This document shows, piece by piece, positions 3 to 64,000 of a stretch of DNA of 64,000 nt (its first letter is position 1; every line of letters begins with the position of its first letter). The notes under the pieces are model-generated. The model made no database searches. It was not told where the DNA came from and worked only from the letters and a program-made list of their open reading frames with translations. The position numbers and the translations under genes are program-made. This DNA comes from Dehalococcoidia bacterium. GTDB lineage: Bacteria > Chloroflexota > Dehalococcoidia > Bin125. The stretch covers positions 639,337-703,336 of the forward strand of contig CBDESM010000003.1 in assembly GCA_965242485.1 (NCBI GenBank). The letters run 5' to 3'.

Positions 3-494
3 TTCGCCAAGCGGCGGATGCACGCGGAGGGCATCGATTTGGGCGGCGAGGCGTCGACGCACTACTACTTGGGCTTGGCCAACCCTCCGCACGTGACCGA
101 CGACGCGGTGCGCACGGCCTGCCTGCTCGCGCACCGAGCCGCGCTCCGCCATCTGCCCAGCGAGATCGCGGATATTCCGCGCTACCAAACGTCGCCCGAA
201 GTCAAAGTACCGTGCGAAGAGGGCCGCAAATCCCAAATAATGCAGGCTCTCAGCCGCGAGCTCGCGCGCAACCGCGACGTCAACACCATCGACGGCATCC
301 GCGCCCAACTCTCCGAAATCGAACCCGGCGCCTGGCTCTTGGTCCGTCCCTCCAACACGACCCCGAACCTGACCGTCACCTTCGAAGCCCGCACGATCGA
401 CGGCTTCAAGCAGGTCCGCGTGCTGGCGCACGACCTCATCAGGGCTCAAGGCTTGGGGGCAGCGGGCATCCGCGCTGCCGAGCCGCTCGCGTAA
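3..494 (+). CDS. phosphomannomutase/phosphoglucomutase family protein, C-terminal part (truncated by window edge)
   Basis: GGEASTHYY sugar-binding loop and WLLVRPSNTTP domain-4 motif; frame open to the left edge. Confidence 0.85.
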   Translation, partial: FAKRRMHAEGIDLGGEASTHYYLGLANPPHVTDDAVRTACLLAHRAALRHLPSEIADIPRYQTSPEVKVPCEEGRKSQIMQALSRELARNRDVNTIDGIRAQLSEIEPGAWLLVRPSNTTPNLTVTFEARTIDGFKQVRVLAHDLIRAQGLGAAGIRAAEPLA

Positions 495-507
495 TGCCCG
501 TTCGGGC

Positions 508-888
508 TCATCTGCCGAGCATGTCGCGCGCGACCGCCCGGACGTCGGACGGCGTTTCAGGATCCCGCAGAGCTCCCTCCTGAAAGCGGCGCAGCAGCGC
601 CGGCGAACACGGCGCATGCTGCCGGAGGGTTCCTTGCCGCTTTGCATCAACGAGCGGCCGGGCAGGCGTCAGCAGCGCGCGGCGATACGGCACGCAAGAC
701 GGTCGATTCACCCATGGATGATCATCGGGCTGGACGATGACGCACTTGCCCCTGCCGCAACGAGGGGAACGCCCGTGCGTGGTGAGGCTGACGAGCGCGA
801 AGAAGCCGTCGCGGGTTTCCCGGCTGATGAAGATGTGCAGGTGATTACCGAAATCGAAGCCGAGCAGCGTTTCGCCGGGTTCGATCAT
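508..888 (-). CDS. putative toxin of Panacea TA pair (PemK/MazF-like, copy 1)
   Basis: 126 aa; ATGA overlap with upstream Panacea gene; GNHL..TT..C..DDHPWV..SC.PY pattern; close paralog at 1546-1932. Confidence 0.6.
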   Translation of the reverse strand: MIEPGETLLGFDFGNHLHIFISRETRDGFFALVSLTTHGRSPRCGRGKCVIVQPDDHPWVNRPSCVPYRRALLTPARPLVDAKRQGTLRQHAPCSPALLRRFQEGALRDPETPSDVRAVARDMLGR

Positions 889-1469
889 CCTTCGCGCCGC
901 CGGGCGAACCGGTCAAGATGATCGAGCAGCGAGGCATGCGCTGCGGCCTCCTCCACCGCCCCCTCGATCTCCCGCTCCGACAGGCCGGCCGCGCGCATGA
1001 TGCGCACCGGATCAATCTCCTCCGCGCCGCCATCCGGCTCGCACCATTCGGGCAGCGAGCGCATGTAGTCGCAGATCTCCGCCTCATCCTTGGCGATGAA
1101 TTGATCGTGCAATTCATCAAGCAGATTGCAGTCGTACTCCGAAAGGCCATCGCAGTCGGCCCGGCCCGCCCAGCACACGGCGCGATCCACGGGGACGGAG
1201 ACGTAGTCGCGCCATACCGAGTCGGGCAAGGGCGCCGGGGCGTTGATCAGTGCCGACATTCGAACCGGCGCCGGTCCGCCGCTCGAAGCCATCCAGCGGT
1301 CGCCGGTGGTCGGGCATCCCGTCTCGATCAAGCCGCGGCGGTCCAGCAGGTAGAGCAGCGCGGCCAACTTGCCCTCCGGCATCGGTGCGCCGTGGCGGGC
1401 CAGCAAGCGCCCCGCGGCTTGCGCCGCTTTCCGCTCGTCGAAATTCAGGGCGAACGCCGCGCGCTTCAT
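885..1469 (-). CDS. Panacea domain (DUF4065/SocA-like) antitoxin, copy 1
   Basis: FDERKAAQAA..KL..LLYL.DR..G.P.TGD…GP.P…LPEW motif set. Confidence 0.8.
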   Translation of the reverse strand: MKRAAFALNFDERKAAQAAGRLLARHGAPMPEGKLAALLYLLDRRGLIETGCPTTGDRWMASSGGPAPVRMSALINAPAPLPDSVWRDYVSVPVDRAVCWAGRADCDGLSEYDCNLLDELHDQFIAKDEAEICDYMRSLPEWCEPDGGAEEIDPVRIMRAAGLSEREIEGAVEEAAAHASLLDHLDRFARRREG

Positions 1470-1545
1470 GCGCTGATCGTAGCGCCGTCCACCCGCTCCC
1501 CCAGCTCGAACTCCTGCGCCAGCAATCGCCAGCCGTCAGTGCGGC

Positions 1546-4952: not shown

Positions 4953-4958
4953 GCGCGG

Positions 4959-4987
4959 TTGACCGAACTGCCGACGCGCCCTAGCAT
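4959..4987 (+). promoter_or_regulatory. sigma70-like promoter of the RCC1/Ig gene
   Basis: TTGACC-17 nt-TAGCAT, then a GGAGG RBS before ATG 5027. Confidence 0.55.
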
Positions 4988-5026
4988 TCGCACGCCCGTT
5001 CCGATCTAGCGCGACGGAGGATTGAG

Positions 5027-8000
5027 ATGCCCGCTCTGCACTTCCCCTCTTGGCTTTCGACACGCGGTATCGCCGTACTGGCGATCTGTGCCAGCGTCGC
5101 CCTTGCGCTACTCACCATTACTAGCTCAAGCGATGCACAAGTTCACGACTCAGATCGCGATCAGGTAGCCGTAGGTGGCAGCCATGTCTGTGCCATCAAC
5201 CTAAACGAAAAACCCCTCTGTTGGGGCGTAAACGATGCCGGTCAGGCAAGTCCTCCTGAAGGCACACGAAGTTCATATACCTCTGCAGATGCGGGGTCAA
5301 ATTGGACTTGCCTACGAACCGATGGCTACTTTTCATGTTTTGGTGGACGTTCGGATAAGAACATTTGGTACACGAGATATGCATGGTCTACACGCACCGG
5401 ATCAAATCACACCTGTCCGCGGTCAAGCCAGCGAAGATCTGAGGCCTACATCGTCCAGTGCGAGGGACACAATACTTATGGGCAAGCCGCTTGGGGCGAT
5501 GCGGCCTGGGGTGAAATTGACGACGGTCTGGGTTACTGGCGAGTAGGGGCGGATCATAATTGCCTGCTGGACGATTCGGGTGAAGTGTCCTGTTGGGGGC
5601 GCAACCACCTCGGGCAGACCGATGTACCAGATGCTCGCTTCCGCGAGATCGCTGCGGGCAGAAACCATAACTGTGGTGTAACCACAGATCGGGAAGTGCT
5701 GTGCTGGGGTGATAATTTCTTCGGGCAGACTGATGGGCCGCAGGGAAGCAACTACGTCAACGTCTGGAGCAAGTCGTCGGCTGATTTTAGCTGCGCCTCC
5801 ACGACGGAGCGGCGGCTCGTCTGCTGGGGTGACAACTCGGAGGGACAGCTGGATGTGCCGCCATCGTTGGTCGTGCCGCCTGGTACTGCCTTCCCGGATG
5901 GGCGGCCTCCGGCTGCGTCTGGGACTGGCAACCGCGTGGTGCCGGCGGGCGATGTCTCGAGCACGGCTGGGTCTTACACCGTCGGCGTGCCGGTGCCTGC
6001 TTCCGATCTTGTCGTCCCGACTCTTGCCGGGCGCGTGGTGGCGCGGATCATCGATTGGCCGGCGGCGGGCGAGCGCACTTGTTCCTATCGCATCGAGTTC
6101 GGCTTCCTGCCGGAAACCGCCTTCGCGAAAGGGACGGCAGCCGCCGCCATCGAGGCCAACGCGCATCTGCTGCCCGAGCTCCGCTATCTCGGCTGCAACA
6201 TCATTCTGCCGCGCGTCCGCACCGGCGACTCAGCTTGGCTGCGCAGCAGTCCCGTCATCTTCGAGCTCGACCCGTCTACCGATATCGACGACGGTTTCCT
6301 CGGCGGCGGCGAGGAATCGACGTTGGAAGGTCGGGTAATTGCACGTTGGAACAGCACATCCAATCGCGTCGAGTTCGGCTTCCTGCCGGCTTGGGCGCTC
6401 GATCGCTTCGGCACCGATGCGGCGGCGACACGATACGAACGGCTGCTGCCGCGCCAGCGCTACCTGACCCTGCGGCAGATCGACGCCCTCGAGCGCGACC
6501 GCTGGCTGCGCAGCAACCCGGCCGTCAACATCCCGATCTCCTACGCGCCGCCGTCGACGGAGGTCGACATCGCCATCTCGCAGGCGCAGGTTTCCGTCGT
6601 GCAGGGCGAGCCGTTCGCCGATGCCACGATCGCGACCGTGACCGGCACGCTGGCCAATGATCTCAACGCCTTCACCGTGACCGGCCTGCCGGCCGGCCTC
6701 TCGGTGCGGCTGCGCGACGCGGGCGAGAACACCCGCTTGGCCGTGCTCAGCGGCACGGTTCCGCGCGGTTCGGCCGCCGCGACTGCCCTGCTCACGCTCC
6801 GCGCCCTCGGCGTTGAAGGCGAAAGCGCAACGGGCACGGTCAGGCTGCAGATCTCGTCCGGCCCGCCGCAGCCGCAGCGCATTCACTGGAACGGTTATTC
6901 GCCGGCGAGCCAGGTCGTAGGCGGCCGCGTCCGCATCAGCCTGCCCGTGATCGAGCCGGGCCCGCGCTCGCCGCAGCTCCGCTACTCGGCCGAGCCAAGC
7001 AACGTCTGCACCGTCAACCCGGCCACCGGCGCGGTCACGCTGCTCTCCCGACCGGGCACCTGCACGATCACGGTGACCAGCGCGGCAGCCGAAAGCTTCG
7101 CCGCCGCGTCCGAGACCGCCACGGTCGTCGTAACTTCGCTGCCGCAGCAGACGCTGGTCTGGGACGGCTACGACCCGCCCGTCCAGCGGGTCGGCGGCTC
7201 GGTGCGGTTGATCCGCCCGATGGTGTCCCCCGGCCCGGATTCCCCGACGTTCCGTTACAGGTCCGATACGCCGGAGCACTGCCGGGTCACGGCGAGCTCG
7301 GGCGCGCTCACGCTGCTCTCGCATGTCGGTCCCTGCGTCGTCACCGTGACCAGCGCGGCCACCGCCGCCTACGCCGAAACGAGCGCCACGGCCGTGGTCC
7401 AGATCACCGACCTGCCCGCGCCGCGGATTACATGGGACGGCTACTCGCCGCTCGCGATCAAATTCGGCGATGCCGCGCCGAGATTGCGCCAGCCGAGCGC
7501 GACCAGCGAGGGCCGCAGCATCCGGCTCGTCTACCGCTATTCGGTGGGATCGGGTTCGGCCGCCGTCTGCGCCGTTAGCCCGTCCAGCGGCACGCTGACG
7601 ATCCGCGGAGTCGGCAACTGCACCATCACCGCGACCAGCGAACGCACGTCCGCCGTCGCGTCCAGTTCCGCGACGGCCTCAATCGTGGTCGAACGGGCCA
7701 ACCGCGACGCCGGCTGGAGTTGGAGCGGCTACGGGCGGGACGAGGGGCGCGTCGGCGAGACGCTGCAAGCCCGACCGCCCGCCAACGTGCCCAGCGGCGT
7801 CACCGTCGCCTACGCGAGCGAGGACGCGTCGATCTGCACGGTTGACGCCGGCACTGGCGCGGCCGCGCTGAAGACGGCCGGAATTTGCCGCGTGTCCGCG
7901 AGCTCCGCGGCGACCAACGCCTACGCCGCGAAATCCGTCTCCGTATCAATCGAGAGCCGCGCCAAGGATCAACCCGACTTGGCCTGGTTCGGCTACTCGC

Positions 8001-47903: not shown

Positions 47904-47943
47904 TACTACCGCGCGCCGCAACGCCGCGCCGGGGGACCTCCGC

Positions 47944-51249
<3,306 letters not shown>

Positions 51250-51262
51250 GCGCCCGTCCCGC

Positions 51263-52198: not shown

Positions 52199-52230
52199 CG
52201 GCCCATTATCGGGCAGATCGGCGCTTCGCC

Positions 52231-53403: not shown

Positions 53404-53450
53404 CCCTGCGGCTTGGCCCTGCGGCTTGGCCCTGCGGCTTGGCCCTGCGG
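53404..53450 (+). repeat. 13-bp tandem repeat (3.6 copies)
   Basis: (CCCTGCGGCTTGG)x3 + CCCTGCGG. Confidence 0.9.
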
Positions 53451-53464
53451 TACGATCCCGTCCG

Positions 53465-54343
53465 ATGCCGGAACTGACCGACTACCCCGCCTCGCACGTC
53501 TACTTCTCGCAGCGCCTGCGGCTGCACTACGTCGATTGGGGCAACCCCGAAGCGCCTCCGCTCGTGCTGGTCCACGGCGGGCGCGACCACTGCCGCTCCT
53601 GGGACTGGCTGGCGCTGCGCCTGCGCGACCGCTTCCACATCATCGCGCCCGACCTGCGCGGACACGGCGACTCGCAGTGGGTGATCGGCTCCCGCTACGC
53701 GATGATCGACTACGTCTACGACCTCGCCCAGCTCGTCCGCCAGAAGCAGCTCGAACCGGTCGCGCTGCTCGGCCACTCGCTCGGCGGGCGGATCGTGCTC
53801 GAATACGCCGGCATCTTCCCCGACCGCGTCGCCAGGCTGATCGCGATCGAGGGCCTCGCCCCGCCCAAGTCCGAATCTGGCCCGCGCGCCGAAACGCCGG
53901 CCCACGAGCGGATGCAGGACTGGATCGACGAGACCTACGGCTACGCCGGCCGCCAGCCGCGCCGCTACCCGACGCTCGAAGACGCCGTCGCCCGCATGCA
54001 GCAGGCCAACCCCCGCCTCAGCGCCGAGCAGGCCCGCCACCTCACCATCCACGGCGCGAACCAAGAGGAGGACGGCGCTTGGACCTGGAAGTTCGACAAC
54101 TACGCCCGCGGCTCCTCGCCCTATCCCTTCAATGAAGCCGACGCCGGCGAAATCTGGAGCCGGGCGCGGATGCCGATGCTGCTCGTCAACGGCCTCGAAA
54201 GCGCCGGCGACCCCAACAAGGGCGGCCGCGCCGCCGCCTTCCCGCAAGCCGAAAAAATCGGCATCGCCGACGCCGGCCACTGGGTCCACCACGACCAGCT
54301 CGACGAGTTCGCCGCCCACGTCGAACGGTTCCTCGACCGATGA
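53465..54343 (+). CDS. alpha/beta hydrolase
   Basis: LVHGG, DLRGHGDS, GHSLGG, AGHWVHHD. Confidence 0.92.
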   Translation: MPELTDYPASHVYFSQRLRLHYVDWGNPEAPPLVLVHGGRDHCRSWDWLALRLRDRFHIIAPDLRGHGDSQWVIGSRYAMIDYVYDLAQLVRQKQLEPVALLGHSLGGRIVLEYAGIFPDRVARLIAIEGLAPPKSESGPRAETPAHERMQDWIDETYGYAGRQPRRYPTLEDAVARMQQANPRLSAEQARHLTIHGANQEEDGAWTWKFDNYARGSSPYPFNEADAGEIWSRARMPMLLVNGLESAGDPNKGGRAAAFPQAEKIGIADAGHWVHHDQLDEFAAHVERFLDR

Positions 54344-55413
54344 CCGCCCCAAAATTCTCGTGGTTCGTCCCCATCGACGGCGACGGCCATCGCATCGGCA
54401 CCCTGCGCGCCGAACGCGAGCCCACCGCCGAGTACCTCCAATCCGTCGTGGATGCGGCAGAAGAGGCCGGCTACCACTCGCTGCTGATCCCCACCCGCTT
54501 CAGCAACGGCCTCTTCGAGGAATCCGCGCCGCTGGCCGAGACATGGACGACGGCGACGGCACTGCTCGCCCGCTCCAAGCGCATCCGCCTGCTGATCGCC
54601 GTCCGCCCCAGCTCCATCGCCCCCGCCCTCTTCGCCCAGCAGGCCGCGACCCTGCACGAACTTTCCGGCGGCCGCATCGACATCAACATCGTCCCCGGCG
54701 GTATCCAAGGCGACAACGAACGCATCGGCGCAACCCTCGACCACGACGACCGCTACGCCCACGCCCGCGATTTCATCGACGCCGTCAACAAACTCTGGAC
54801 CGCCGACGGCCCGATCAACTACGACGGCACCGGCTTCCGCCTCCGCAACGCCATGGCCAATCCATCCCCCGAACCAAGACCTCAGTGGTACTTGGGCGGC
54901 GCATCCGATGCCGCCCTCAAACTAGCCGCCGAACAAGGCGACGTCCTCCTCTGCTGGATCCAACCCAAAGACAAGATGCAAGCTCTCCTAGCCCGAGCCC
55001 GAGCCGCATATAAGGCAGCAGGCCGAGAACCAAGATTCGGCCTCCGCACCCACCTAGTAGTCCGCAACACCGAACAAGAAGCTTGGCAAGCCGCCCAAGA
55101 CCTCATAGCCGAAGCCGACCCCAAAGTCCTAGCCCAACGCGCCGCCCAAGTCAAAGGCACCAAAATGGTAGGCACCGCCGCCCAATCCCTCCGCGCCGAA
55201 GACGACCGCCTAGGCGAACGCCTCTGGAACGGCATCTCCCGAGTAAGAGTAAACCTAGGCACCGCCATAGTAGGCACCCCAAACCAAGCCGCCGAAGAAC
55301 TCTCGGCTTATCGCGAAATAGGCTTCGAAGATTTCATTCTCAGCGCCTACCCCCACCGCGAAGGCGCTGAGCAGATCGCCGAACAGGTCCTCCCTCTAGT
55401 AGCTCAACCCTAA
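54340..55413 (+). CDS. LLM class monooxygenase, SsuD-like
   Basis: WF.P..GD, LIAVRP, SGGRI.IN, YLGGAS, IVGTP. Confidence 0.85.
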   Translation: MTAPKFSWFVPIDGDGHRIGTLRAEREPTAEYLQSVVDAAEEAGYHSLLIPTRFSNGLFEESAPLAETWTTATALLARSKRIRLLIAVRPSSIAPALFAQQAATLHELSGGRIDINIVPGGIQGDNERIGATLDHDDRYAHARDFIDAVNKLWTADGPINYDGTGFRLRNAMANPSPEPRPQWYLGGASDAALKLAAEQGDVLLCWIQPKDKMQALLARARAAYKAAGREPRFGLRTHLVVRNTEQEAWQAAQDLIAEADPKVLAQRAAQVKGTKMVGTAAQSLRAEDDRLGERLWNGISRVRVNLGTAIVGTPNQAAEELSAYREIGFEDFILSAYPHREGAEQIAEQVLPLVAQP

Positions 55414-55613
55414 CGTTCCATCGCATCCCGTTCTGCGTCGCGGACCATGAGTGCCACCACCAAGGTCCAGAAAGATGTTGCATGACTCCCATCGTTTGCG
55501 CGGGACTCTTTTGCTTCGTTTCCGGTTTCTCGTCACAACTAGCGAACCTTTCATCCATCAGCGCTGACGGTACGTGCTCGGTGATTGATGCGCTTGATGC
55601 GCACGGGAATCCA

Positions 55614-56816
55614 TTATCTGATCCACCACCGGCGCGTTCCCAGCCGCCGGCCGCGGACGGACTGCTCACCTGCCTCCTCCGCCTCCTCTGCGTCAATGGA
55701 TACGACCAGTTTCCCTTGCTCAATCTTGACGAGATCCTCCTGATCCAGCTTCAATATATCGAGTGCGATTTCCAACATCATCGGCTGCAATTTTCTATTG
55801 AAGTACGCGGCCCCGAGAATTCCCGATATCGTCCCCAAAGCGCTGCCGACCAATGGCCCGCCGGCCGGCACGATTGCGCCCGCGGCTGCACCGCCCGCAG
55901 CACCAGCCCAAGACATCACCGAGGCAATGCCGAACCGCGACATCAAGCTCAAGGTGCCCACTACTGCGATCTTGTTCTTTGATGTCCGATCCGCATCGGT
56001 CAGCTTGCGCTCGTTCCGTACGAGATCGGCAATGATCTGAATCCCGAGCGTGACCATGGACAGATGCGGCATTGCAGCGCTCAACCGATCCGGGACATCT
56101 ATCCCCAGATTGCCGCAAAGCGCGTCCAAGCCGGACCGGGTCTTCTGGGTCAACTCCTCGCTCGGGCCGAGATCAGTCAGACGATCGGCAAAATTTCGAG
56201 ATGTCTGAGCCACGCGGTCATACACCTCGGTGCTGACCAAGAACTCAACGCCCGGGGCCTGCTGCATCGCCTCCTTCACGTCCGTCGCGTAGTCGGCTGC
56301 GCCCGTCTTCACCTGCCACAAGATCGACCGGCCGTCGGCCGTATTCCCGCTGATGTCCCAGACTGCTTGAGTCGGGTTCGCCGCGATCTCTACATCTTTG
56401 TATCCAAGCTCAGTCAGCATTTCTGCCGCCTCGAGCTCGGCCGCCTTCCCTTTCAGGGCACTTACGAACCCGGTCTCCGCGCCGTCGCCGCGCATCCGTA
56501 TCTCCGCCCAATGCTTCGCCAGTGATCCCTCATAGTTCCCGAACGCCAGCTCATGCGCCCGCTCCAACCGTTCGCGAAGGGCGTCGTTCACGTTGATCTC
56601 GGGGAAGAACGCCGCCAGCCCGGTCGTCCAGTCCACCGCGCCTTGCCATGCGTCCCGAACGCGACTGCCAGATCGGTCCGCCGCCGAATCTTCCGGGCTT
56701 CCCTCTTGCGAAGAGCGCAGCCTCTGCAACCGATCGTTCACGCGACCGCGCAGCCCTGAAACTCCATCCTGTTTTGCTTGCGACGCACGATCACGCCTCG
56801 TCCACCGAATCCGCAT
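55614..56816 (-). CDS. hypothetical protein with possible PD-(D/E)xK-like motif and glycine-zipper membrane segment
   Basis: KG..AE…WDI…QVK; GAAGGAAAGAIVPAGGPLVGSALG; GGAGG RBS; lower GC. Confidence 0.6.
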   Translation of the reverse strand: MRIRWTRRDRASQAKQDGVSGLRGRVNDRLQRLRSSQEGSPEDSAADRSGSRVRDAWQGAVDWTTGLAAFFPEINVNDALRERLERAHELAFGNYEGSLAKHWAEIRMRGDGAETGFVSALKGKAAELEAAEMLTELGYKDVEIAANPTQAVWDISGNTADGRSILWQVKTGAADYATDVKEAMQQAPGVEFLVSTEVYDRVAQTSRNFADRLTDLGPSEELTQKTRSGLDALCGNLGIDVPDRLSAAMPHLSMVTLGIQIIADLVRNERKLTDADRTSKNKIAVVGTLSLMSRFGIASVMSWAGAAGGAAAGAIVPAGGPLVGSALGTISGILGAAYFNRKLQPMMLEIALDILKLDQEDLVKIEQGKLVVSIDAEEAEEAGEQSVRGRRLGTRRWWIR

Positions 56817-57232
56817 GTCCCTTCCTCCCAACACTCCGAAGCCGGCGTCGGCTCACTGGTTCCGTGCGTTCCGCAACTCCGCGCTTGCCAAGCTAGCCGA
56901 TCACGAAAATCGCCTCAACATCGACCTGGCCGGCAGCAGCCCTACGCGACGCAGACATCCCGCTACGGGAAGATCAGCGCACCAGCCCCGCTCTCACGAG
57001 CCAAACGGGGAACAGATTGTGCCCTGTCATGTCATCGACCGCGCGTTCTATATCGTCGCCGTTCGCAAGAGCATCCCCAGCCTGTACGATTGCGGAGGGT
57101 GTCGCAAGACGGGTTCTACATGCCTCTTTCGACATCCGATGGAATTATTGATGATGTTCATTAGATGGGTCTTTCTGCCGGCTGTACGGGGCAAGGGTGC
57201 GAGTTGGGAGCGGAGGGCGCTAGATTGGGGGC

Positions 57233-58441
57233 ATGGGGTGGGCTGTTCATCGGTCGGGGGGGTTGACGCATTTGGATGCGGGGCGGGCGTTTGCGGGGTA
57301 TACGTTGATGTGTCCGGCGGGGGGCGGGGGGGCGGTGCTGCTGGATTTGCGGGGGCGGGCGGTGCATCGCTGGCGGGCGCCGGAGGGGGCGGGGTTCTTC
57401 AACGTGGAGCTGCTGGAGAACGGGAATCTGCTGGGGTTGTGCGCGCCGCCGGCGACGCTGGCCGGGCCGGGGGAGGCGATGCAGACGCAGGAGGCGATGC
57501 TGCGGACGGAGGCGCCGGAGCCGCCGGAGCTGTTCCGGCGCTTGGGAGGGGGCGGGCATTTGCTGGTCGAGCTGGATTGGGAGGGGGAGGAGGTTTGGCG
57601 GTTCGAGGGCGAGGCGCTGCACCACGATTTCGCGCGGCTGGAGGACGGGCGGACGCTGGCGCTGGAGTGGGTGGAGATTCCGGAGGAGGTGGAGCGGACG
57701 GTGCGCGGGGGGACGCGCTGGCGGCGGCAGCCGATGCCGCGGCGGATGATCGGCGACGACATCGTGGCGATTTCGGCGGAGGGGGAGATCGCGGAGCGGA
57801 TCGAGCTGTGGCGGCTGCTGGATCCGGGCAAGGCGCGGATTTGCCCGCTGGAGCGGCGCTGGGAGTGGACGCATTGCAATTCGCTGGACGTGCTGCCGGA
57901 CGGGGGGATCATTTTTTCGGCGCGGAACGCGAGCACGGTGGGGATCGTGGATCCGGGCGCGGAGGGCGCGGAGGCGTCGCTGCGCTGGCAGTGGGGCTGG
58001 CCGGAGATTTCGCACCAGCATCATGCGACGGCGCTGGAGGACGGGCGCATCCTGCTGTACGACAACGGGATGCACCGGCTGCAGGATCTGCCGTTTTCGC
58101 GGGTGCTGGAGGTGGATCCGGAGACGGAGGAGCTGGGCTGGACGTACCAGGGGGAGCCGCGCGAGCAGTTCTTCAGCGCGCACATTTCGGGGGCGGCGCG
58201 GCTGCCGAACGCGAACACGCTGATCACGGAGGGGGCGTCGGGCCGCATTTTCGAGGTGACGCGGCAGGGCGAGGTGGTCTGGGAGTGGGTGAGCCCGTTC
58301 CAGACGGTGGCGCTGGGGAGGCGTGCGAGCTGGGTGTTCCGGTCTTGGCGCTACGGGGAGGATCATCCGGCGCTGGCGGGGCGTGATTTGGATCCGGGCC
58401 GGCTGGCGGCGTTCAACCGCTTGCACGGGCTGGACGAGTAG
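57233..58441 (+). CDS. arylsulfotransferase (ASST) family protein
   Basis: HHDF, WTHCNS, HQHH, YDNG, RLPN.NTLITE motifs. Confidence 0.85.
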   Translation: MGWAVHRSGGLTHLDAGRAFAGYTLMCPAGGGGAVLLDLRGRAVHRWRAPEGAGFFNVELLENGNLLGLCAPPATLAGPGEAMQTQEAMLRTEAPEPPELFRRLGGGGHLLVELDWEGEEVWRFEGEALHHDFARLEDGRTLALEWVEIPEEVERTVRGGTRWRRQPMPRRMIGDDIVAISAEGEIAERIELWRLLDPGKARICPLERRWEWTHCNSLDVLPDGGIIFSARNASTVGIVDPGAEGAEASLRWQWGWPEISHQHHATALEDGRILLYDNGMHRLQDLPFSRVLEVDPETEELGWTYQGEPREQFFSAHISGAARLPNANTLITEGASGRIFEVTRQGEVVWEWVSPFQTVALGRRASWVFRSWRYGEDHPALAGRDLDPGRLAAFNRLHGLDE

Positions 58442-58482
58442 TTTTCCAAGGCGGCCGGGCGGCGGGGCGCTTCGGCGCGGTC

Positions 58483-59076
58483 TTAGCCGCCGGGGCGCTG
58501 GATTTGCAGGCGGCGGGTGGCGACGAGGAGGTCGTGGGTTTTGCCGTCGGCGTCGATGACGTAGTCCCAGAGGACGGCTTCGCGCTGGAAGCCGAGGCGG
58601 CGGAAGACGTTTTGGGCGGCGCTCTGGTCGAGCACCATGCGGGCGGTGAGTAGCTGGAGTTCGAGCAGCTGTGCGATGGCGTAGATTTCTTCGGCGATGA
58701 TGCGGCCGAGGCCGAGGCCGCGGGCGTCGGGCGAGAGCAGGAGGCGGATTTCGCCGAGGTGGCGGGTCCAGTCGGCGGCGTTGTAGTGGAGGTCGCCTTC
58801 GCCGAGCAGCTTGTCGCCGTCGAAGCCGAGCACGGTGTAGGTTTCGGCGGATTCGATCTCGGCGACCCATTCGTCGACGGCGTGTTCTTGGGTGATGTCG
58901 CGGCGGAGGAAGATGAGGTCGTCGGCGGGGAGGCTGCGGGCGAAGGCGAGGAGCAGGTCCTTGTCGCCGGGCTGCATGAGGCGGAGGGAGATCTTGTGGC
59001 CGTCGCGGAGCGAGGCGGAGCGGGGGTAGCGCACGCCGATGCGCTGTTCGGCGTCGGCTGGTGTGGCTTGGGCCAT
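58483..59076 (-). CDS. GNAT family N-acetyltransferase
   Basis: RGLGLG motif; F..LGF..E. Confidence 0.85.
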   Translation of the reverse strand: MAQATPADAEQRIGVRYPRSASLRDGHKISLRLMQPGDKDLLLAFARSLPADDLIFLRRDITQEHAVDEWVAEIESAETYTVLGFDGDKLLGEGDLHYNAADWTRHLGEIRLLLSPDARGLGLGRIIAEEIYAIAQLLELQLLTARMVLDQSAAQNVFRRLGFQREAVLWDYVIDADGKTHDLLVATRRLQIQRPGG

Positions 59077-59248
59077 GGTGGATCGCTTTCACTGCCGCGA
59101 CGGTTCCGCGCGGGTATCAGTATCAGGCAACGGAGGTATGCGCGATAGGGCGCGGGGGCAGGCTAGCGGGCGCGGAGCGGGGGCGGGGGTACGCTTGCCG
59201 TGCGGGCGCGCCGCCGGGCCGGGCGCGGCGCGCGGGAGCCGAGTGCGG

Positions 59249-60646
59249 ATGCAGCAGTCGCGCGGCATCTTCTACGGCTGGTGGATCCTGCTGGCAGCGG
59301 TCGTGTGCATGACGATCGCGAGCGGGGTGACGTTCTGGGCGGTGGGCATCTACGTGGTGCCGTTGGAGGAGGAGTTCGGCTGGAGCCGCTGGTCGATCCA
59401 GTTCGGGGTGGCGATCGGGCTGCTGATGGCGGGGCTGGCGGCGCCGATCACGGGCAAGACGATCCAGCGCTTCGGGGCGCGGCGCTGCATTGCGCTGGGG
59501 ACGCTGGTGACGTTCGCCTCGTTCGCGCTGCTGGCACAGGCGGAGACGCTGTGGCAGTGGTTCCTGTACCAGGGGATCAACAACATCATGCGCGGGTTCA
59601 TGTTCTACGTGCCGTTCCAAGTGATCATTTCGACTTGGTTCGACAAGAAGCGCGGGCGCGCGGTGGGCATTCTGGCGATCGGCTTCTCGCTGGGCGGGCT
59701 GATCGTGCCGGTGATGCAGTGGATCGTGGACAATGTCGGCTGGCAGGAGTCGTTCTTCTTCGCGGGGGGAATCATTACGGCGTTCTTCCTGCCGGTGAGC
59801 CTGCTGCTGCTGCGCAATCATCCGCAGGACAAGGGGCTGGAGATCGACGGGGAGCCGCGGCCGGCGGGAGGGCCGGCGGGGACGCGGACGTTTCCGGGTC
59901 TGACGGTCGGGCAGGCGGTGCGGACGCCGAATTTCTGGGCGATCGCGTTCGCCTTCATGTTCTTCTTCTTCGGGATGTTCGGCTGGATGTCGAACGGGTT
60001 CAACGTGTACGAGAGCTACGAGATTTCGCGGCCGACGGCGTCGCTGCTGTTCATGGCCGGGTCGATCGGCGGGGTGATCAGCCGGCCCGCGTTCGGCTAT
60101 TTGGCGGAGCGGATCCCGAGCATCGAGCTGGCTTCGATCGTGCTGGCGATGTTCATGGCTGGCGGGATGATCGCGCTGCTGCTGACGGGCGGTTCGTTCG
60201 TCGGGATCGGGATTTTCATTTGCTGCTGGTTCATCGGTTCGGCGGGAGGGCCGGTGCTGGAGCCGCTGATTTTGCCGCGGGTGTTCGGGCTGCGGCATTT
60301 CGCGGCGATCATGGGGACGATGTTCATGGTTGAGACGGTGGGGCAGTTCGCCGCGCCGCAGATCGGCGGGCTGATTTACGACTGGATCGGGACGTACGAC
60401 CCGTTGCTGCTGATGTTCACGGGCAGCTTGGGACTCTCGATGATTTTCTTCGTGGCCGCTTGGAAGCTGCCCAATCCGCGGATTCCGCCGCTCGCGCCGG
60501 AGCCGGCCGCGCTGCCGCGGCTGGCGTTCGCGCAGTCGAACGGGACCGGGCCGGCAGTCGGCGGGGCGATGTCCGGCGGGGCGGGAGCTGCGCCGCTGAT
60601 CGCGCGGGTTTCGGAGCAGCGGGCGGGGCGGGCGGCCGGCGGCTAG
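59249..60646 (+). CDS. MFS transporter
   Basis: FYGWW start, about 12 TM segments, WF.KKRG.A.G. Confidence 0.9.
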   Translation: MQQSRGIFYGWWILLAAVVCMTIASGVTFWAVGIYVVPLEEEFGWSRWSIQFGVAIGLLMAGLAAPITGKTIQRFGARRCIALGTLVTFASFALLAQAETLWQWFLYQGINNIMRGFMFYVPFQVIISTWFDKKRGRAVGILAIGFSLGGLIVPVMQWIVDNVGWQESFFFAGGIITAFFLPVSLLLLRNHPQDKGLEIDGEPRPAGGPAGTRTFPGLTVGQAVRTPNFWAIAFAFMFFFFGMFGWMSNGFNVYESYEISRPTASLLFMAGSIGGVISRPAFGYLAERIPSIELASIVLAMFMAGGMIALLLTGGSFVGIGIFICCWFIGSAGGPVLEPLILPRVFGLRHFAAIMGTMFMVETVGQFAAPQIGGLIYDWIGTYDPLLLMFTGSLGLSMIFFVAAWKLPNPRIPPLAPEPAALPRLAFAQSNGTGPAVGGAMSGGAGAAPLIARVSEQRAGRAAGG

Positions 60647-60969
60647 AAGATGCCGAGCTCGAATTTGGCCTCGTCGGAGGCCATTTCGCGCGGGTCCCAG
60701 GGCGGGCTGAAGACGAGCTCGGTCTCGACCTCGTCGACGCCGTCGACCGCGGAGGCGGCCTGCTCGATCTGGGCCTTGAGCATCGGGCCGACGGGACAGG
60801 CGGGCGAGGTGAGGGTGAACTGGACCTTGACCGAGTGCTCGCCGGGCGCGTCGATGCCGTAGATCAGGCCGAGGTCGACGACGTTGATGCCGATCTCGGG
60901 GTCGAAGACGGTCTTGAGCATGTCGAGGACGCGTTCTTCGAGCGGTGCTGGGGCGGTTTCTGCGGTCAT
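60643..60969 (-). CDS. DUF59 metal-sulfur cluster assembly factor (SufT/PaaD-like)
   Basis: DPEIGINVVDLGL.Y, TLTSPACP, PPW. Confidence 0.92.
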   Translation of the reverse strand: MTAETAPAPLEERVLDMLKTVFDPEIGINVVDLGLIYGIDAPGEHSVKVQFTLTSPACPVGPMLKAQIEQAASAVDGVDEVETELVFSPPWDPREMASDEAKFELGIF

Positions 60970-60979
60970 GCCGGGCTCC

Positions 60980-61486
60980 TTACGAGCTGAGGATGCGGGT
61001 GGGGATGTCGGTGTCGTCGTCGATGGTCGCGCCGTCGGCTTGGGCGAGGGCCTGGTCGAGCACCTTCCAGGCGAGCAGGCCGCACTTGATGCGGACGGGG
61101 AAGCGGGCGACGCCGGAGAGCGCTTCGAGGTCGCCGAGGTCGACGGCGTCGAGATCGTAGTCCTCGTCGGTGAGCATCTGCTGGACCGCGCCGGAAAGCT
61201 GGCGGGCGTCGGCGATGCTGCGGCCCTCGGCGGCCTCGGTCAGCATCGAGGCGCTGCTTTGGGAGATGGAGCAGCCGGCGCCGTCGAAGCGGATGCCGGC
61301 GAGCGCGCCGTCGGCGAAGGCGACGGAGAGCTTGATTTCGTCGCCGCAGGAGGGATTGAAGCCCTCGACGGCGATGCCGGAGGCGGAGTCAACGCCGCGG
61401 TTGCGGGGGCGGCGGTAGTGATCGAGGATCACGTCGCGGTAGAGCTCGTCGAGCTGGACGGGGTTGGCGGCTTCGCGGCTGCTCAT
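60980..61486 (-). CDS. sufU: SUF system NifU-family protein SufU
   Basis: ILDHY..PRN, NPSCGD, GCSISQSSAS, RIKC.LL.W. Confidence 0.92.
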   Translation of the reverse strand: MSSREAANPVQLDELYRDVILDHYRRPRNRGVDSASGIAVEGFNPSCGDEIKLSVAFADGALAGIRFDGAGCSISQSSASMLTEAAEGRSIADARQLSGAVQQMLTDEDYDLDAVDLGDLEALSGVARFPVRIKCGLLAWKVLDQALAQADGATIDDDTDIPTRILSS

Positions 61487-61490
61487 ACGG

Positions 61491-62738
61491 TCACCCCGAG
61501 CCGGGCAGGCCGAAGCGGGCGCCGGCGTCGCGCAGGCCGTCGACCAGCGCGTCGATTTCGTCGCGGCGGTTGTAGAGGTAGAAGGAGGCGCGGGCGGTGG
61601 CGGGGACGCCGAGCGCGCGCATGAGCGGCTGGGCGCAGTGGTGGCCAGCGCGGATGGCGATGCCGTGCGCGTCGAGGATCGTGGCGACGTCGTGGGAGTG
61701 GATGTCGGCGTAGTTGAAGGCGACGACCGCGCCGCGGCGGGCGGGGTCTCCGGGCCCGTAGATTTCGAGGCCTTCGAGCCGGGAGAGGCGATCCATCGCG
61801 TAGGCGACGAGCTGATGGTCGTGGTCGCGGACGCGGTCCATGCCGACCGCTTCGAGGTAGTCGATGGCCGCGCCGAAGGCGATCACGTCGGCGATGTTGG
61901 GCGTGCCGGCCTCGAACTTGTGGGGCAGTGCGGCCCAGGTTGATTCTTCGCGGTTGACGACGCTGATCATTTCGCCGCCGCCGAGGAAGGGGTCGAGGTC
62001 GCCGAGCAGCTCGCGGCGGCCCCAGAGCACGCCGACGCCAGTGGGGCCGAGCATTTTGTGGGAGGAGAAGGCGGCGAAGTCGACGCCGAGCTCGGAGACG
62101 TCGACGGGCATCTGGGGGACGCTCTGGGCGGCGTCGACGATCATGCGCGCGCCGACGGAGCGGGCCATTTCGGCGATTTCGGCGACGGGGGCGATCGCGC
62201 CGAGCACGTTGGACATGTGGGCGACGGAGACGATGCGGGCGTTGGCGCCGATGGCGTTGCGGGCGGAATCGAGGTCGAGTTCGCCGTCGGGGCCGAGCTC
62301 GATGAAGCGGAGCTTCGCGCCGGCGCGCTGGGCGGCGAGCTGCCAGGGCACGAGGTTGGAGTGGTGCTCGAGCGCGGAGAGGACGATCTCGTCGCCTTCG
62401 CGCAGGCGCGCGCCGAGCGTGTAGGCGAGCAGGTTGAGCGACTCGGTGGTGTTGCGGGTGAAGACGATCTCGCGGCGGTCGGCGGCGCCGATGAAGGCGG
62501 CGGCGCGCTTGCGGACGTCCTCGTAGGCGGCGGTGGCCTCTTCGGCGAGCGTGTGCAGGCCGCGGTGGATGTTGGCGTTGGTGTTCGAGTAATAATCGAC
62601 CAGCGCGTCGATGACGGCTCGGGGCTTCTGGGTGGTGGCGGCGTTGTCGAGGTAGACGAGGGGGCGTCCGCGGATTTCGCGCGAGAGGATCGGGAAGTCC
62701 GCCCGCAGCGCTTCGAGGGCCGGCCGCGCGGCGGTCAT
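61491..62738 (-). CDS. sufS: SufS cysteine desulfurase
   Basis: YLDNAATTQKP, EHHSN, SSHKMLGPTG, RAGHHCA. Confidence 0.95.
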   Translation of the reverse strand: MTAARPALEALRADFPILSREIRGRPLVYLDNAATTQKPRAVIDALVDYYSNTNANIHRGLHTLAEEATAAYEDVRKRAAAFIGAADRREIVFTRNTTESLNLLAYTLGARLREGDEIVLSALEHHSNLVPWQLAAQRAGAKLRFIELGPDGELDLDSARNAIGANARIVSVAHMSNVLGAIAPVAEIAEMARSVGARMIVDAAQSVPQMPVDVSELGVDFAAFSSHKMLGPTGVGVLWGRRELLGDLDPFLGGGEMISVVNREESTWAALPHKFEAGTPNIADVIAFGAAIDYLEAVGMDRVRDHDHQLVAYAMDRLSRLEGLEIYGPGDPARRGAVVAFNYADIHSHDVATILDAHGIAIRAGHHCAQPLMRALGVPATARASFYLYNRRDEIDALVDGLRDAGARFGLPGSG

Positions 62739-63052
62739 GGCCCGTCCGCGTCCACGCGGATTTCGCCGTCGGCGACTTCGACCGGGTAGCAGTCGACCTT
62801 GCCGATGGCGGGCAGGGTCTTGGCCTCGCCGGTGGCGACGTCGAAGAGCGCGCCGTGGCGGGGGCATTCGATGCGGTCGCCGACGAGTTCGCCCTCGCCG
62901 AGCGGGCCGTCGTCGTGGGTGCAGCGGTTTTCGATGGCATAGACGGCGCCGCCGTCGACGCGGCAGAGGGCGATGCTGCGGCCGTCGATCTCGACGACGC
63001 GGGCCGAACCTTCGGGGAGCTCGTCGATGCGGGCGACGGCGCGGGCGGTCAT
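62735..63052 (-). CDS. Rieske [2Fe-2S] ferredoxin
   Basis: CTH…CPRHG motifs. Confidence 0.92.
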   Translation of the reverse strand: MTARAVARIDELPEGSARVVEIDGRSIALCRVDGGAVYAIENRCTHDDGPLGEGELVGDRIECPRHGALFDVATGEAKTLPAIGKVDCYPVEVADGEIRVDADGP

Positions 63053-64000
63053 GCGGTGGCTCCGGCGGGCTCGCGGGCGGCCGCGTCGGCGTGCTTGATG
63101 TGGAGTTCGGCCTCGATCAGGTCCTCGACGGCGTCGCGGAGGTGTCCGTCGGCGATGCCGTCGGCGATCTCGGCGAGGAAGCCGCGCACGATCAGGCGCT
63201 CGGCCTCGTCGGGCGGGATGCCGCGGGCTTGGAGGTAGAAGAGCTGCTCGGGGCTGACCGGGCCGACGGCGGCAGCGTGGGAGCACTTGACGTCGTCGGC
63301 TTCGATTTCGAGCACGGGGATCGGATCGGCGCCGGCGCCCTCGTCGAGCAGGAGGTTGCGCATGGTCTGGTAGGCGCCGGTCTGCTGGCCTTCGGGTTCG
63401 ATCCGGATGACGCCGTATTGGACGGCGTGGGAGTCGTCTTCGAGGACGCCGCGGATGAGCAGGTCGCTGGTGGCGCCGGCGCCGGCGTGGTGCTGGCGGG
63501 TGACGTGCTCGACGTGCTGGTCGCGGGTGCCGACGAAGAGGCCGCGGATGTCGGCGTGGCCGCCGCGCTCGGCGAGGCGGACGTCGATCCGCTGCTTGTC
63601 GAGGTCGCCGCCGAAGGAAGCGGTGGTGTAGCGCAGGCGGGCGTCGCGGCCGATGTCGGCGCGGGCGGTGGTCAGCGAAGCGGCGCCTCTGCGCCAGTTC
63701 TGGACGGCGGCGAAGTGGAGGTCCGCCCCTTCTTCCGCGATCAATTCGAGCGACAGGTGGATCAGCCCGCCGCGGCCCTCCTGCGGGCCGGGCGTGGCGG
63801 CTCCGGCCTCGACGAGGGAGAGCCTGCTGTTGCGATCGGCGACGACCAGCGCGTAAGTCCAGGCATCGGATTTGGCGGCCGCTTCGGAGACCAGGTGGTG
63901 CAGCGAGTCCTGCAGGTGCGCGCCGGGCGGCGCGTAGCAGAACATGCCCTGGGTCCAGAGCGCGCGGCCGAAGGCTTCGAAGCGGTCGCGCGGGCGGGGG
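63049..64000 (-). CDS. sufD: Fe-S cluster assembly protein SufD (partial, truncated by window edge)
   Basis: P.LEI.ADDVKCSH, LFYL..RG; position in the suf operon. Confidence 0.85.
   Translation of the reverse strand, partial: PRPRDRFEAFGRALWTQGMFCYAPPGAHLQDSLHHLVSEAAAKSDAWTYALVVADRNSRLSLVEAGAATPGPQEGRGGLIHLSLELIAEEGADLHFAAVQNWRRGAASLTTARADIGRDARLRYTTASFGGDLDKQRIDVRLAERGGHADIRGLFVGTRDQHVEHVTRQHHAGAGATSDLLIRGVLEDDSHAVQYGVIRIEPEGQQTGAYQTMRNLLLDEGAGADPIPVLEIEADDVKCSHAAAVGPVSPEQLFYLQARGIPPDEAERLIVRGFLAEIADGIADGHLRDAVEDLIEAELHIKHADAAAREPAGATA

What the first reader, a model, noticed from the sequence alone, without database searches (positions are those of the whole stretch)
180..64000. Strand skew flips from C/A-rich to G/T-rich at almost every accessory slot, independent of gene orientation
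Seen by eye on the + strand: backbone genes left of each insert lose G and are C/A-rich, e.g. 54960-55410 uses CTA/GTA/GCA/CGA/CAA codons, also ~180-420, 4400-4920, 16000-16260, 22950-23200, 29950-30090, 37450-37730, 43300-43500 and 46200-46440. Genes to the right lose C and are G/T-rich, e.g. ~2560-2800, 8350-8620, 18940-19260, 25960-26100, 33660-33900, 44400-44500 and 57230 onward. Around the 55.4-57.2 kb slot the bias spans several genes of both orientations (ASST +, GNAT -, MFS +, suf -), so it is not simply a coding-strand effect. The polarity matches a replication origin. Inference: these are recurrent recombination or repair hotspots whose outward synthesis or ssDNA exposure leaves a strand-specific mutational footprint in the flanking homology arms.
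Basis: partly seen in the sequence, partly recalled or inferred. Interest (0 to 1): 0.8.

Follow-up and report, generated by a model that had tools for sequence, protein, structure and literature searches.

The report
Sawtooth strand skew stepping at variable loci
In this uncultivated sponge-associated Chloroflexota bacterium, the balance of G versus C between the two DNA strands runs along the chromosome as a sawtooth, jumping sharply at long-lived variable gene slots and drifting back in between, which points to an unusual way of copying or repairing the chromosome.

Summary
However, only 1 of 6 slots in the window (55.4-57.1 kb) flips the sign of the skew across whole genes: G-versus-C skew at fourfold-degenerate codon sites (GC4 skew) goes from -0.75 to +0.75, on genes of both strands.

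Genome-wide, per-gene GC4 skew reaches +-0.9. It follows position (R2 0.73), not gene strand (R2 0.10). It forms a sawtooth in which sharp minus-to-plus steps outnumber sharp plus-to-minus steps.

Upward steps are enriched at:
- low-GC islands: 83-86% of 108, z 8-13;
- slots that vary against a congener, G001;
- synteny breakpoints.

All of this recurs in G001, so it is not an assembly artefact.

Steps belong to slots occupied in both species, not to recent inserts.

Best reading (0.5): a fork-direction or long-tract-synthesis landscape with many fixed switch sites at hotspots, like mammalian skew N-domains. Whether forks leave or meet at the steps is unresolved, because 63-65% of genes point toward them.

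The parts
35539..55413 (.). Left domain. The + strand is C- and A-rich at synonymous sites. Backbone genes on both strands include IleRS, glutamate 5-kinase and an LLM-type monooxygenase.
   Evidence: Per-gene GC4 skew on the + strand runs from -0.01 to -0.75 for 18 of 19 genes (one at +0.02). Orthologs in G001 show the same signs. Families.
54960..55413 (+). Near-edge spike: the last ~450 bases of the LLM monooxygenase gene, almost free of G and T at third codon positions.
   Evidence: GC skew -0.24, AT skew +0.38, GC 0.60. The gene's GC4 skew is -0.75 and its AT4 skew +0.54. Third-base strings; many A-ending codons are shared with G001.
55395..57138 (.). Variable slot: 1.74 kb here, 8.66 kb of unrelated DNA in G001. 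It holds one 406-aa ORF on the - strand (55614-56834) with no family match.
   Evidence: Homology to G001 ends at 55394 and resumes at 57139. No Pfam, PADLOC or NCBIfam match. GC 0.59-0.63.
57139..64000 (.). Right domain. The + strand is G- and T-rich. It holds ASST (+), GNAT (-), MFS (+) and suf genes (-), and continues about 20 kb beyond the window.
   Evidence: GC4 skew +0.57 to +0.82 for all 8 genes on either strand. 1-kb GC skew is +0.18 to +0.335. G001 orthologs are +0.65 to +0.90. The skew decays to negative by about +20 kb.
34798..35538 (.). Sharp downward step between divergent genes (glycerate kinase on - strand, next gene on + strand). It is one of the 9 strongest downward steps of the contig.
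   Evidence: J=-0.67. GC4 goes from +0.47 to -0.30. Also present in G001, +0.30 to -0.21.
16208..18990 (+). Low-GC slot (GC 0.52) with an Lhr-core helicase paralog of the DpdJ/BrxHI type.
   Evidence: Pfam domains DEAD, Helicase_C, WH_Lhr and DEAD_assoc. PADLOC DpdJ at 544 bits. Flanking genes +0.11 and +0.15. Edge GC skews -0.32 and +0.26.
39292..40325 (-). Lineage-specific insert with a Swt1-like HEPN gene (39614-40099). It is absent from G001 and shows only a small step.
   Evidence: Pfam PF18731. G001 has 129 bases between the flanking orthologs. Flanks -0.36 and -0.16.
4953..6034 (.). Low-GC stretch with RCC1 repeats, inside a region that is a synteny break against G001 (window about 1.5-8.6 kb). 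Skew rises across the break.
   Evidence: Pfam RCC1_2. Block ends. GC4 is -0.45 and -0.12 to the left, +0.58 and +0.25 at 8.6-10.2 kb.
23242..25991 (.). Slot with three tandem 169-aa genes and small ORFs, at a synteny break against G001. No step in the flanking large genes.
   Evidence: Gene list and GC4 values, +0.15 left and +0.07 right. Block ends.
46445..47423 (.). Small variable spacer (980 bases here, 828 in G001). No step.
   Evidence: -0.33 left, -0.27 right.

Best explanation
The window samples a genome-wide landscape of strand-specific mutation pressure.

Proposed mechanism. Long-tract DNA synthesis, most likely ordinary replication forks, has a preferred direction at each place. That direction switches abruptly at many fixed sites and changes gradually between them. 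My preferred version is that the sharp minus-to-plus steps are preferred start sites from which synthesis proceeds outward both ways. The strand running 5' to 3' away from the site spends more time single-stranded and loses C and A by deamination, becoming G/T-rich. Forks from neighbouring sites meet at variable places, so the skew declines smoothly to the next step.

Relation to variable loci. The switch sites coincide with old insertion hotspots and rearrangement breakpoints. The site attracts variable DNA; the insert does not make the step.

Shown here: the sawtooth itself, its independence of gene strand, its excess of sharp upward steps, its link to shared variable slots and breakpoints, its effect on codon positions 1 and 2, and its recurrence in a congener.

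Inferred, not shown: that replication is the process, the direction of forks, and the chemistry.

Of my 0.5 for a fork or long-tract landscape, I put about 0.3 on forks leaving the steps and 0.2 on forks meeting there with inverted skew polarity.
For: 1. Position, not gene strand, sets the skew. GC4 skew = -0.083 x orientation + 0.96 x neighbour-domain, R2 0.73; orientation alone gives R2 0.10. G001 gives R2 0.75.

2. Amplitude is far above other lineages. Per-gene sd is 0.44-0.49 with values to +-0.9. In 41 high-GC loci of other species the within-locus sd of coding-strand GC4 skew is mostly 0.07-0.15.

3. Sharp steps are mostly upward. Distinct steps of at least 0.7: 9 up and 3 down in G000, 12 up and 2 down in G001. 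At least 1.0: 4 up and 0 down in each.

4. Conserved gene adjacencies drift down (mean -0.027, n=1406). Variable slots (+0.10, n=188) and synteny breaks (+0.096, n=185) step up; Mann-Whitney p 5e-10 and 2e-8. This recurs in G001. It survives orientation correction and restriction to tandem-oriented flanks: +0.081 (n=100) and +0.089 (n=96) against -0.025 (n=1098).

5. Up peaks of at least 0.5 lie at variable or break loci in 25 of 30 cases, against 8 of 21 down peaks (p 0.0013). In G001 the counts are 36 of 43 against 10 of 20 (p 0.013).

6. Low-GC islands: 83-86% of 108 step upward in G000 and 78-83% of 87-88 in G001.

7. Step sizes at collinear boundaries correlate between the species, r 0.65. 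The window's step is at the same slot in both.

8. Near strong steps the skew holds a plateau and then declines about linearly. For example, right of 2.011 Mb the 10-kb bins read 0.93, 0.90, 0.86, 0.81, 0.68 ... 0.59 (one search shows it going negative by 2.17 Mb).

9. The G-poor strand is A-rich and codon positions 1+2 shift with the domain (coefficient +0.074 and +0.083). Both point to mutation pressure rather than codon choice.

10. Precedent: polyploid cyanobacteria with irregular GC skew replicate from multiple origins without needing DnaA (abstract of PMC7198777).
Against: - Genes point the wrong way for origins. 63% of genes are on the + strand where the + strand is C-rich and 35% where it is G-rich; in G001 the figures are 58% and 42%. 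Strand calls were checked with codon positions 1-2 only.
- The ribosomal-protein operon (L2 at 448.8 kb, +) is on the C-rich strand.
- dnaA (957 kb) and rpoB (859 kb) sit at gradual plus-to-minus crossings.
- Cumulative gene orientation peaks at about 1.95 Mb, next to the strongest step.
- Evidence the other way is thin. The one rRNA operon (1.623 Mb, +) lies on the G-rich strand. tRNA genes split 27 to 15, but by my count of clusters in that listing about 15 to 14 loci.
- No cluster of canonical DnaA boxes exists anywhere: at most 2 per 600 bases in either genome.
- The association with slots is statistical. Only 63-64% of slots step upward and the mean step is about +0.1.
- Ortholog skew correlates only r 0.50-0.54 between the congeners, even deep inside synteny blocks.
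- An extra spike in the last 300-500 bases next to islands is not predicted by fork direction alone.
- No direct replication data were available.
Confidence: 0.5

Rival explanations
1. Variable slots are recurrent recombination or repair hotspots. Outward repair synthesis, such as break-induced or recombination-dependent synthesis, or single-strand exposure in the homology arms, deaminates one strand on each side. This builds a mirror-image skew that is not tied to normal replication.
For: Upward steps are enriched at variable slots and synteny breaks in both genomes. An extra sharp component sits within 300-500 bases of island edges, with G-poor, A-rich composition on the strand reading toward the island. 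This looks like a short-tract process. By my own reasoning, not a tool result, the polarity fits 3'-end extension outward from the slot, or 3' tails of an incoming linear fragment.
Against: Recent lineage-specific inserts carry no step. Domains reach 20 to over 150 kb with a plateau, far longer than usual repair tracts. Simple resection at a break inside the slot predicts the opposite polarity (reasoning). Strong steps also occur at tight gene junctions with no slot, for example gaps of 24, 54 and -4 bases.
Confidence: 0.2
2. The skew blocks are relics of many inversions and translocations of a genome that once had an ordinary two-arm skew. Steps simply mark rearrangement joints.
For: Gene order is very fluid: 161 collinear blocks, 83 of them with at least 5 genes, between two congeners. 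Steps are enriched at synteny breaks. Some published complete genomes have cumulative-skew inversions within a single replichore, which the authors discuss partly as possible misassemblies (passage of PMC7111523).
Against: Inversions create equal numbers of sharp up and down joints, but breaks show steps above +0.5 in 8-13% and below -0.5 in 1-3%. The largest steps lie inside conserved blocks at collinear slots. Conserved runs show a steady downward drift, which relics do not predict.
Confidence: 0.05
3. The skew reflects transcription or codon choice. Coding strands prefer C-ending codons, and slots lie between convergent genes, so the + strand looks C-rich on the left and G-rich on the right.
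For: Coding strands are C-rich on average (-0.15), as in many other high-GC loci. Slots and breaks are enriched for convergent pairs, 30-32% against 10% at tight junctions.
Against: Orientation explains R2 0.10 against 0.73 with position. Genes of opposite strands share the same + strand skew. The effect persists in tandem-oriented flanks and at 5' ends.
Confidence: 0.03
4. This applies to the near-edge spike only. The C-rich, G-poor strand reading into islands, or equivalently the G/T-rich strand reading out, is either selected as a transcription insulator (Rho-type loading or hairpin terminators) or produced by outward read-through from the island.
For: The spike is confined to 300-500 bases. 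All 7 terminator-like hairpins in 54.0-58.5 kb lie on the - strand inside the LLM gene's last 1.1 kb, against 3.4 +- 1.7 expected.
Against: No promoter-like site was found in the slot: 0 found against 0.6 expected. It cannot explain the 20-150 kb domains. The Rho link is recalled knowledge, not tested here.
Confidence: 0.1

Closest known systems
Replication-linked strand asymmetry of bacterial chromosomes (leading strand rich in G and, less so, T)
   Same: The same two-letter pattern is seen, G/T-rich against C/A-rich. It is strongest at synonymous sites, is seen on genes of both strands, and spills into codon positions 1-2. The rule itself comes from the abstract start of PMC3174206 in the listing.
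   Different: There are dozens of sign changes instead of two. The shape is a sawtooth instead of a square wave. Amplitude reaches +-0.9 at fourfold sites. dnaA is not at an upward switch. Most genes lie on the C-rich strand.
Skew N-domains of mammalian genomes (upward skew jumps at replication origins, linear decline between them)
   Same: Sharp upward jumps with gradual declines. Evolutionary breakpoints concentrate at the jumps. For mammals this is from recall plus the titles and abstract starts of PMC2764438, PMC3320577 and PMC2722678 in the listing.
   Different: This is a bacterium of 2.8 Mb, with domains of 20-200 kb and far higher amplitude. Genes here point toward the jumps, whereas in N-domains (recalled) they tend to point away. 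No replication timing or fork data exist for this organism.
Multi-origin, DnaA-independent replication in polyploid cyanobacteria with irregular GC skew
   Same: Bacteria with irregular skew and several initiation sites (abstract of PMC7198777). No DnaA-box cluster was found here.
   Different: Here the skew is very strong and ordered, with discrete steps. dnaA is present. Ploidy and replication mode are unknown.
Genomic islands anchored near GC-skew switch sites (Du et al. 2011)
   Same: A statistical link between acquired islands and skew switch sites (abstract of PMC3148964).
   Different: That survey, read only as an abstract, concerns switch sites across 1088 genomes in general. Here there are many switch sites per genome and only the upward kind is enriched. 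Recent inserts carry no step.
Skew gradients in vertebrate mitochondrial DNA set by time spent single-stranded
   Same: Extreme skew at fourfold sites, G/T against C/A, with a gradient along the molecule. This is recalled, plus the abstract start of PMC4182315 in the listing.
   Different: That is a small organelle genome with one asymmetric replication mode. Here the pattern repeats many times and mirrors on both sides of each step.

Membership tests
Ordinary single-origin bacterial replichore skew | Two switch points only, roughly opposite each other | tested here: not met
   30 upward and 21 downward distinct steps of at least 0.5 in contig C3. 20-kb GC skew changes sign dozens of times.
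Ordinary single-origin bacterial replichore skew | dnaA or a DnaA-box cluster at the minus-to-plus switch | tested here: not met
   dnaA at C3 956.6-957.1 kb lies at a gradual plus-to-minus crossing. At most 2 boxes (consensus, up to 1 mismatch) per 600 bases anywhere. The box consensus is recalled and may not fit this phylum.
Ordinary single-origin bacterial replichore skew | Most genes on the G-rich (leading) strand | tested here: not met
   35-37% on the G-rich strand in strong domains of G000, 42% in G001.
N-domain-type sawtooth (fixed initiation sites, dispersed termination) | Upward jumps sharper and larger than downward ones | tested here: met
   Steps of at least 0.8: 6 up and 1 down (G000), 9 up and 1 down (G001). 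At least 1.0: 4 up and 0 down in each.
N-domain-type sawtooth (fixed initiation sites, dispersed termination) | Gradual, roughly linear decline between jumps | tested here: inconclusive
   Conserved adjacencies drift by -0.027 per 4-gene step. There is a plateau then decline near the strongest steps, but profiles are noisy and were not fitted.
N-domain-type sawtooth (fixed initiation sites, dispersed termination) | Jumps coincide with mapped replication initiation | not testable with these tools
No replication data exist for this uncultivated organism.
Rearrangement scars | Equal numbers of sharp up and down joints at breakpoints | tested here: not met
   At 185 breaks, steps above +0.5 occur in 8-13% and below -0.5 in 1-3%. 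In G001 the figures are 11-15% and 2-3%.
Coding-strand (transcription or codon) skew | Sign follows gene strand | tested here: not met
   The orientation coefficient is -0.083 and R2 is 0.10 alone. Eight adjacent genes on both strands share +0.57 to +0.82.
   For slots filled in one species only (n=68), the step with the insert minus the step without has mean -0.004, p 0.88.
   GC4 skew is -0.41 and +0.30 within 250 bases of islands, falling to about -0.1 and +0.1 beyond 1 kb. Controlled for gene ends.

The most novel reading that the evidence does not exclude
This sponge-associated Chloroflexota genus copies its chromosome as dozens of small replication domains. The fork-switch sites are fixed, heritable and sit at defence-island hotspots and rearrangement breakpoints. 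This would be a bacterial counterpart of eukaryotic N-domains. It leaves an unusually strong strand asymmetry (GC4 skew to +-0.9), with most genes facing the switch sites.
Probability: 0.3. Interest if true: 0.9.

Novelty: new variant of a known kind. Interest (0 to 1): 0.72.

Why it matters
Strand skew is the standard way to find bacterial origins and to check assemblies, and here it gives dozens of 'origins'. If the steps mark real fork switches, this lineage would have many discrete replication domains readable from sequence alone. Their borders would double as hotspots for gene gain and rearrangement, which links replication programme and genome plasticity in a bacterium. If instead the process is repair-linked, it would be a new strand-specific mutational footprint around integration hotspots. 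Either way the skew rewrites codon usage, from nearly all G-ending to nearly all C-ending, and shifts protein composition gene by gene. This matters for codon-based expression or growth predictions and for horizontal-transfer detection in such genomes.

Tried and rejected
- Assembly artefact: rejected, because the same step and domains occur in the separately assembled congener G001.
- DnaA boxes: no cluster in either genome. The consensus is recalled.
- Missing repair genes as a cause: UDG (3 matches), MutS domains I and V, MutL, RNase H and RecG wedge are all present in G000 and in 4 relatives. No loss explains the skew.
- Highly expressed genes as a compass for fork direction: they give conflicting answers.
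- Gene-caller bias toward the C-rich strand: rejected with a test using codon positions 1-2 only, where under 0.5% of genes were doubtful in every skew class.
- Repeats at the steps: the large repeats are giant-gene copies elsewhere. A paralog search of step-adjacent genes found only large families, with no element shared by the steps.
- Rfam: no match in the window.
- Promoter scan of the slot: none found.
The family view therefore rests on small loci. G008 and G006 show a gentler rise at the same locus. G006 has no insert and no sharp step. G007 shows none.
- Polarising substitutions: not done, since there is no close outgroup and synonymous sites are near saturation at 85% protein identity.
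- Earlier notes of this scan: none on skew.
- Literature searches: I found no paper describing such a sawtooth in a bacterium. Supplements were not seen.

Full report
WHAT THE WINDOW IS

The window is C3:639337-703336 of a 2.77-Mb, 69% GC assembly in three contigs. The best named relatives of its isoleucyl-tRNA synthetase are Chloroflexota and Dehalococcoidia metagenome genomes at 52-60% identity.

No gene finder was on hand, so I called genes with a codon log-odds model. It gave 2377 genes covering 87% of the assembly. I checked strand assignment with a test that uses only codon positions 1 and 2. Fewer than 0.5% of genes were doubtful in every skew class.

CHECKING THE OBSERVATION

They were chosen by eye, however, and only 5 of the 16 fall outside the genome's central 95% range for 250-base windows.

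For whole genes I used G-versus-C skew at fourfold-degenerate sites, expressed on the + strand (GC4 skew). By this measure only one of six slots flips the sign. The LLM gene ending at 55413 has -0.75 and the ASST gene starting at 57335 has +0.75. The eight genes to the right, on both strands, have +0.57 to +0.82. Nearly all genes from 35.5 to 55.4 kb are negative. The other slots show small upward steps or none. So 'almost every slot flips' is overstated, while 'independent of gene orientation' is right.

THE GENOME-WIDE PATTERN

Per-gene GC4 skew ranges to +-0.9 with an sd of 0.44. In 41 high-GC loci from other species, the within-locus sd of coding-strand GC4 skew is mostly 0.07-0.15.

A regression gives -0.083 x orientation + 0.96 x neighbour-domain with R2 0.73. 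Orientation alone gives R2 0.10.

Along the contig the skew is a sawtooth. Distinct upward steps outnumber downward ones more and more as the threshold rises:
- at least 0.7: 9 up and 3 down;
- at least 0.8: 6 up and 1 down;
- at least 1.0: 4 up and 0 down.

The window's step (J=1.20) ties for the largest.

The G-poor strand is A-rich, and codon positions 1+2 shift with the domain. Both point to mutation pressure rather than codon selection.

Low-GC islands, defined without reference to skew (GC below 0.60 over at least 700 bases; 109 in C3), show right-minus-left GC skew above zero in 83-86% of 108 usable cases. This holds for flanks from 300 bases to 10 kb, with z of 7.7-12.7 against random placement. 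Left-negative with right-positive occurs in 26-41%, against 2-5% for the reverse.

At fourfold sites the effect has two parts:
- a spike within about 500 bases of the island (-0.41 and -0.25 on the left, +0.30 and +0.23 on the right);
- a plateau of about +-0.1 out to 20 kb.

Both 3' and 5' ends next to islands are shifted the same way, by -0.36 and -0.22 over the last 300 bases.

INDEPENDENT DEFINITION OF VARIABLE LOCI

I fetched the complete contig of a congener, G001 (IleRS 87% identical). I called 2404 genes in it and paired 2030 reciprocal best hits with median identity 85%. Gene order is very fluid: 161 collinear blocks, 83 of them with at least five genes.

Steps by boundary class, measured with 4 genes on each side:

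| Boundary class | n | Mean step | Notes |
|---|---|---|---|
| Collinear in both, under 400 bases apart | 1406 | -0.027 | |
| Collinear, at least 1 kb of unshared DNA in either genome | 188 | +0.10 | 64% positive; 10% above +0.5, 3% below -0.5 |
| Synteny breaks | 185 | +0.096 | |

The Mann-Whitney p values against the first class are 5e-10 (variable slots) and 2e-8 (synteny breaks).

The same holds when computed on G001. It also holds after removing the orientation term, and within tandem-oriented flanks only. Distinct upward peaks of at least 0.5 lie at variable or break loci in 25 of 30 cases, against 8 of 21 downward peaks. In G001 the counts are 36 of 43 against 10 of 20. The background under the same generous 1.5-kb rule is 0.50.

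G001 also repeats the island test (78-83% of 87-88, z 7.5-10.3), the up/down asymmetry and the regression.

THE WINDOW'S MAIN SLOT

Homology between the two species ends at window base 55394 and resumes at 57139. The slot holds 1.74 kb here and 8.66 kb of unrelated DNA in G001. Yet the flanking orthologs have the same skews in both: -0.75 | +0.76 here and -0.73 | +0.85 in G001. The decay to the right is also shared.

In other genera of the family the same neighbourhood shows a gentler rise in G008 and G006. G006 has no insert and no sharp step. G007 shows no rise.

SITE OR INSERT?

Step sizes at collinear boundaries correlate between the species, r 0.65. Broken down by occupancy:
- slots of at least 1 kb in both species step up by +0.16 and +0.19 (n=67);
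- slots filled in only one species show about 0 to +0.06;
- the genome with the insert does not differ from the one without (n=68, p 0.88).

So the step belongs to old, shared hotspots, not to the inserted DNA.

At the same time the landscape evolves. Ortholog coding-strand skew correlates only r 0.50 overall and 0.54 within blocks, regardless of distance to block ends.

MECHANISM

Random inversions of a two-arm skew cannot give an excess of sharp upward steps or a steady downward drift in conserved runs. Transcription or codon choice cannot give shared skew on opposite-strand neighbours. The pattern is formally that of a fork-direction landscape: abrupt switches at fixed sites and gradual change between them, as in mammalian N-domains (listing and recall). 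Multi-origin replication in bacteria has a precedent in polyploid cyanobacteria (abstract). Near the strongest steps the skew holds a plateau for tens of kb and then falls, which fits this better than short repair tracts.

Under the usual rule (leading strand G/T-rich; listing), the steps are places that forks leave.

The difficulty is orientation. Evidence that genes face the steps:
- 63-65% of genes (58% in G001) lie on the C-rich strand, so they point toward the steps.
- The ribosomal-protein operon does too.
- dnaA and rpoB sit at gradual downward crossings.
- Cumulative gene orientation peaks beside the strongest step.

Evidence the other way is thin. The single rRNA operon lies on the G-rich strand. 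tRNA genes split 27 to 15, but about evenly when counted as clusters.

So there are two readings. Either forks leave the steps and most genes are head-on, or forks meet at the steps and the polarity of the skew is inverted in this lineage. The first has a parallel in budding-yeast origins lying between convergent genes, which I recall but did not look up. I cannot decide between them from sequence.

The near-edge spike needs an additional short-range process. Candidates are abortive outward synthesis, outward transcription, or selection for termination signals. On the last point, 7 terminator-like hairpins, all on the - strand, lie inside the end of the LLM gene, against 3.4 +- 1.7 expected.

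OTHER CHECKS

No DnaA-box cluster was found. UDG, MutS, MutL, RNase H and RecG are all present. Island genes in the window are orphans or defence-like: a DpdJ/BrxHI-type Lhr core, a Swt1-like HEPN and a Schlafen-type protein. This agrees with earlier unchecked notes of this scan on other parts of the genome.

Read mapping and a wider family survey could not be done, and substitutions were not polarised.

VERDICT

Its link to variable loci is statistical and concerns old hotspots. The mechanism remains open between a many-site replication landscape (my preference) and a hotspot-centred repair process.

Noticed in passing
window 16331-18886 (+) and 18991-23241 (+): A low-GC (0.52) Lhr-core helicase paralog sits directly upstream of the resident high-GC full-length Lhr gene with the same domain order. 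Its best PADLOC match is DpdJ at 544 bits, and it also matches BrxHI.
   Followed up: partly
window 23238-25905: Three tandem copies of a two-gene unit: a 62-64 aa ORF on + strand and a 169-aa ORF on - strand. No convincing family was found; the only hit is a weak holin-like match (E 0.006, below cut-off).
   Followed up: partly
window 25992-29912 (-) and 5027-8248 (+): Two large ORFs (1306 aa and 1073 aa). The first has no Pfam, PADLOC or NCBIfam match. The second has only RCC1 repeats at its low-GC N-terminus.
   Followed up: partly
G000 C3 612714-630922, 816112-824267, 1695044-1713243, 2234222-2247342 and C2 121666-128057: Copies of giant genes (one ORF of 4736 aa), 6-18 kb long and 88-96% identical. 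Contig C2 ends in one copy, and the start of C2 overlaps the end of C3 at 98% identity, so the assembly breaks at these repeats.
   Followed up: no
G000 C3 2056372-2059053 (+); G001 C1 2-250 (-): The MutS domain V match in G000 is split in two by about 29 residues within one 988-aa frame. In G001 only domain I was found, at the very start of the contig. Whether mismatch repair is intact in this genus was not resolved.
   Followed up: partly
loci L004 (Dehalococcoidia MAG) and L080 (Caldilineaceae MAG): Among 41 high-GC loci of other species, these two have unusually high gene-to-gene variation of GC4 skew (sd 0.30; maxima 0.53 and 0.67). They might share the phenomenon.
   Followed up: no
window 54257-55307, - strand: Seven terminator-like hairpins with T runs, all on the strand antisense to the LLM gene. 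This is a by-product or a use of its G/T-rich antisense strand.
   Followed up: no
window 37876-39291 (-): A Schlafen AlbA_2 plus HATPase_c_4 protein with a C-terminal HTH. It matches a PADLOC model labelled pAgo (72 bits), is conserved in G001, and lies next to the HEPN insert.
   Followed up: no
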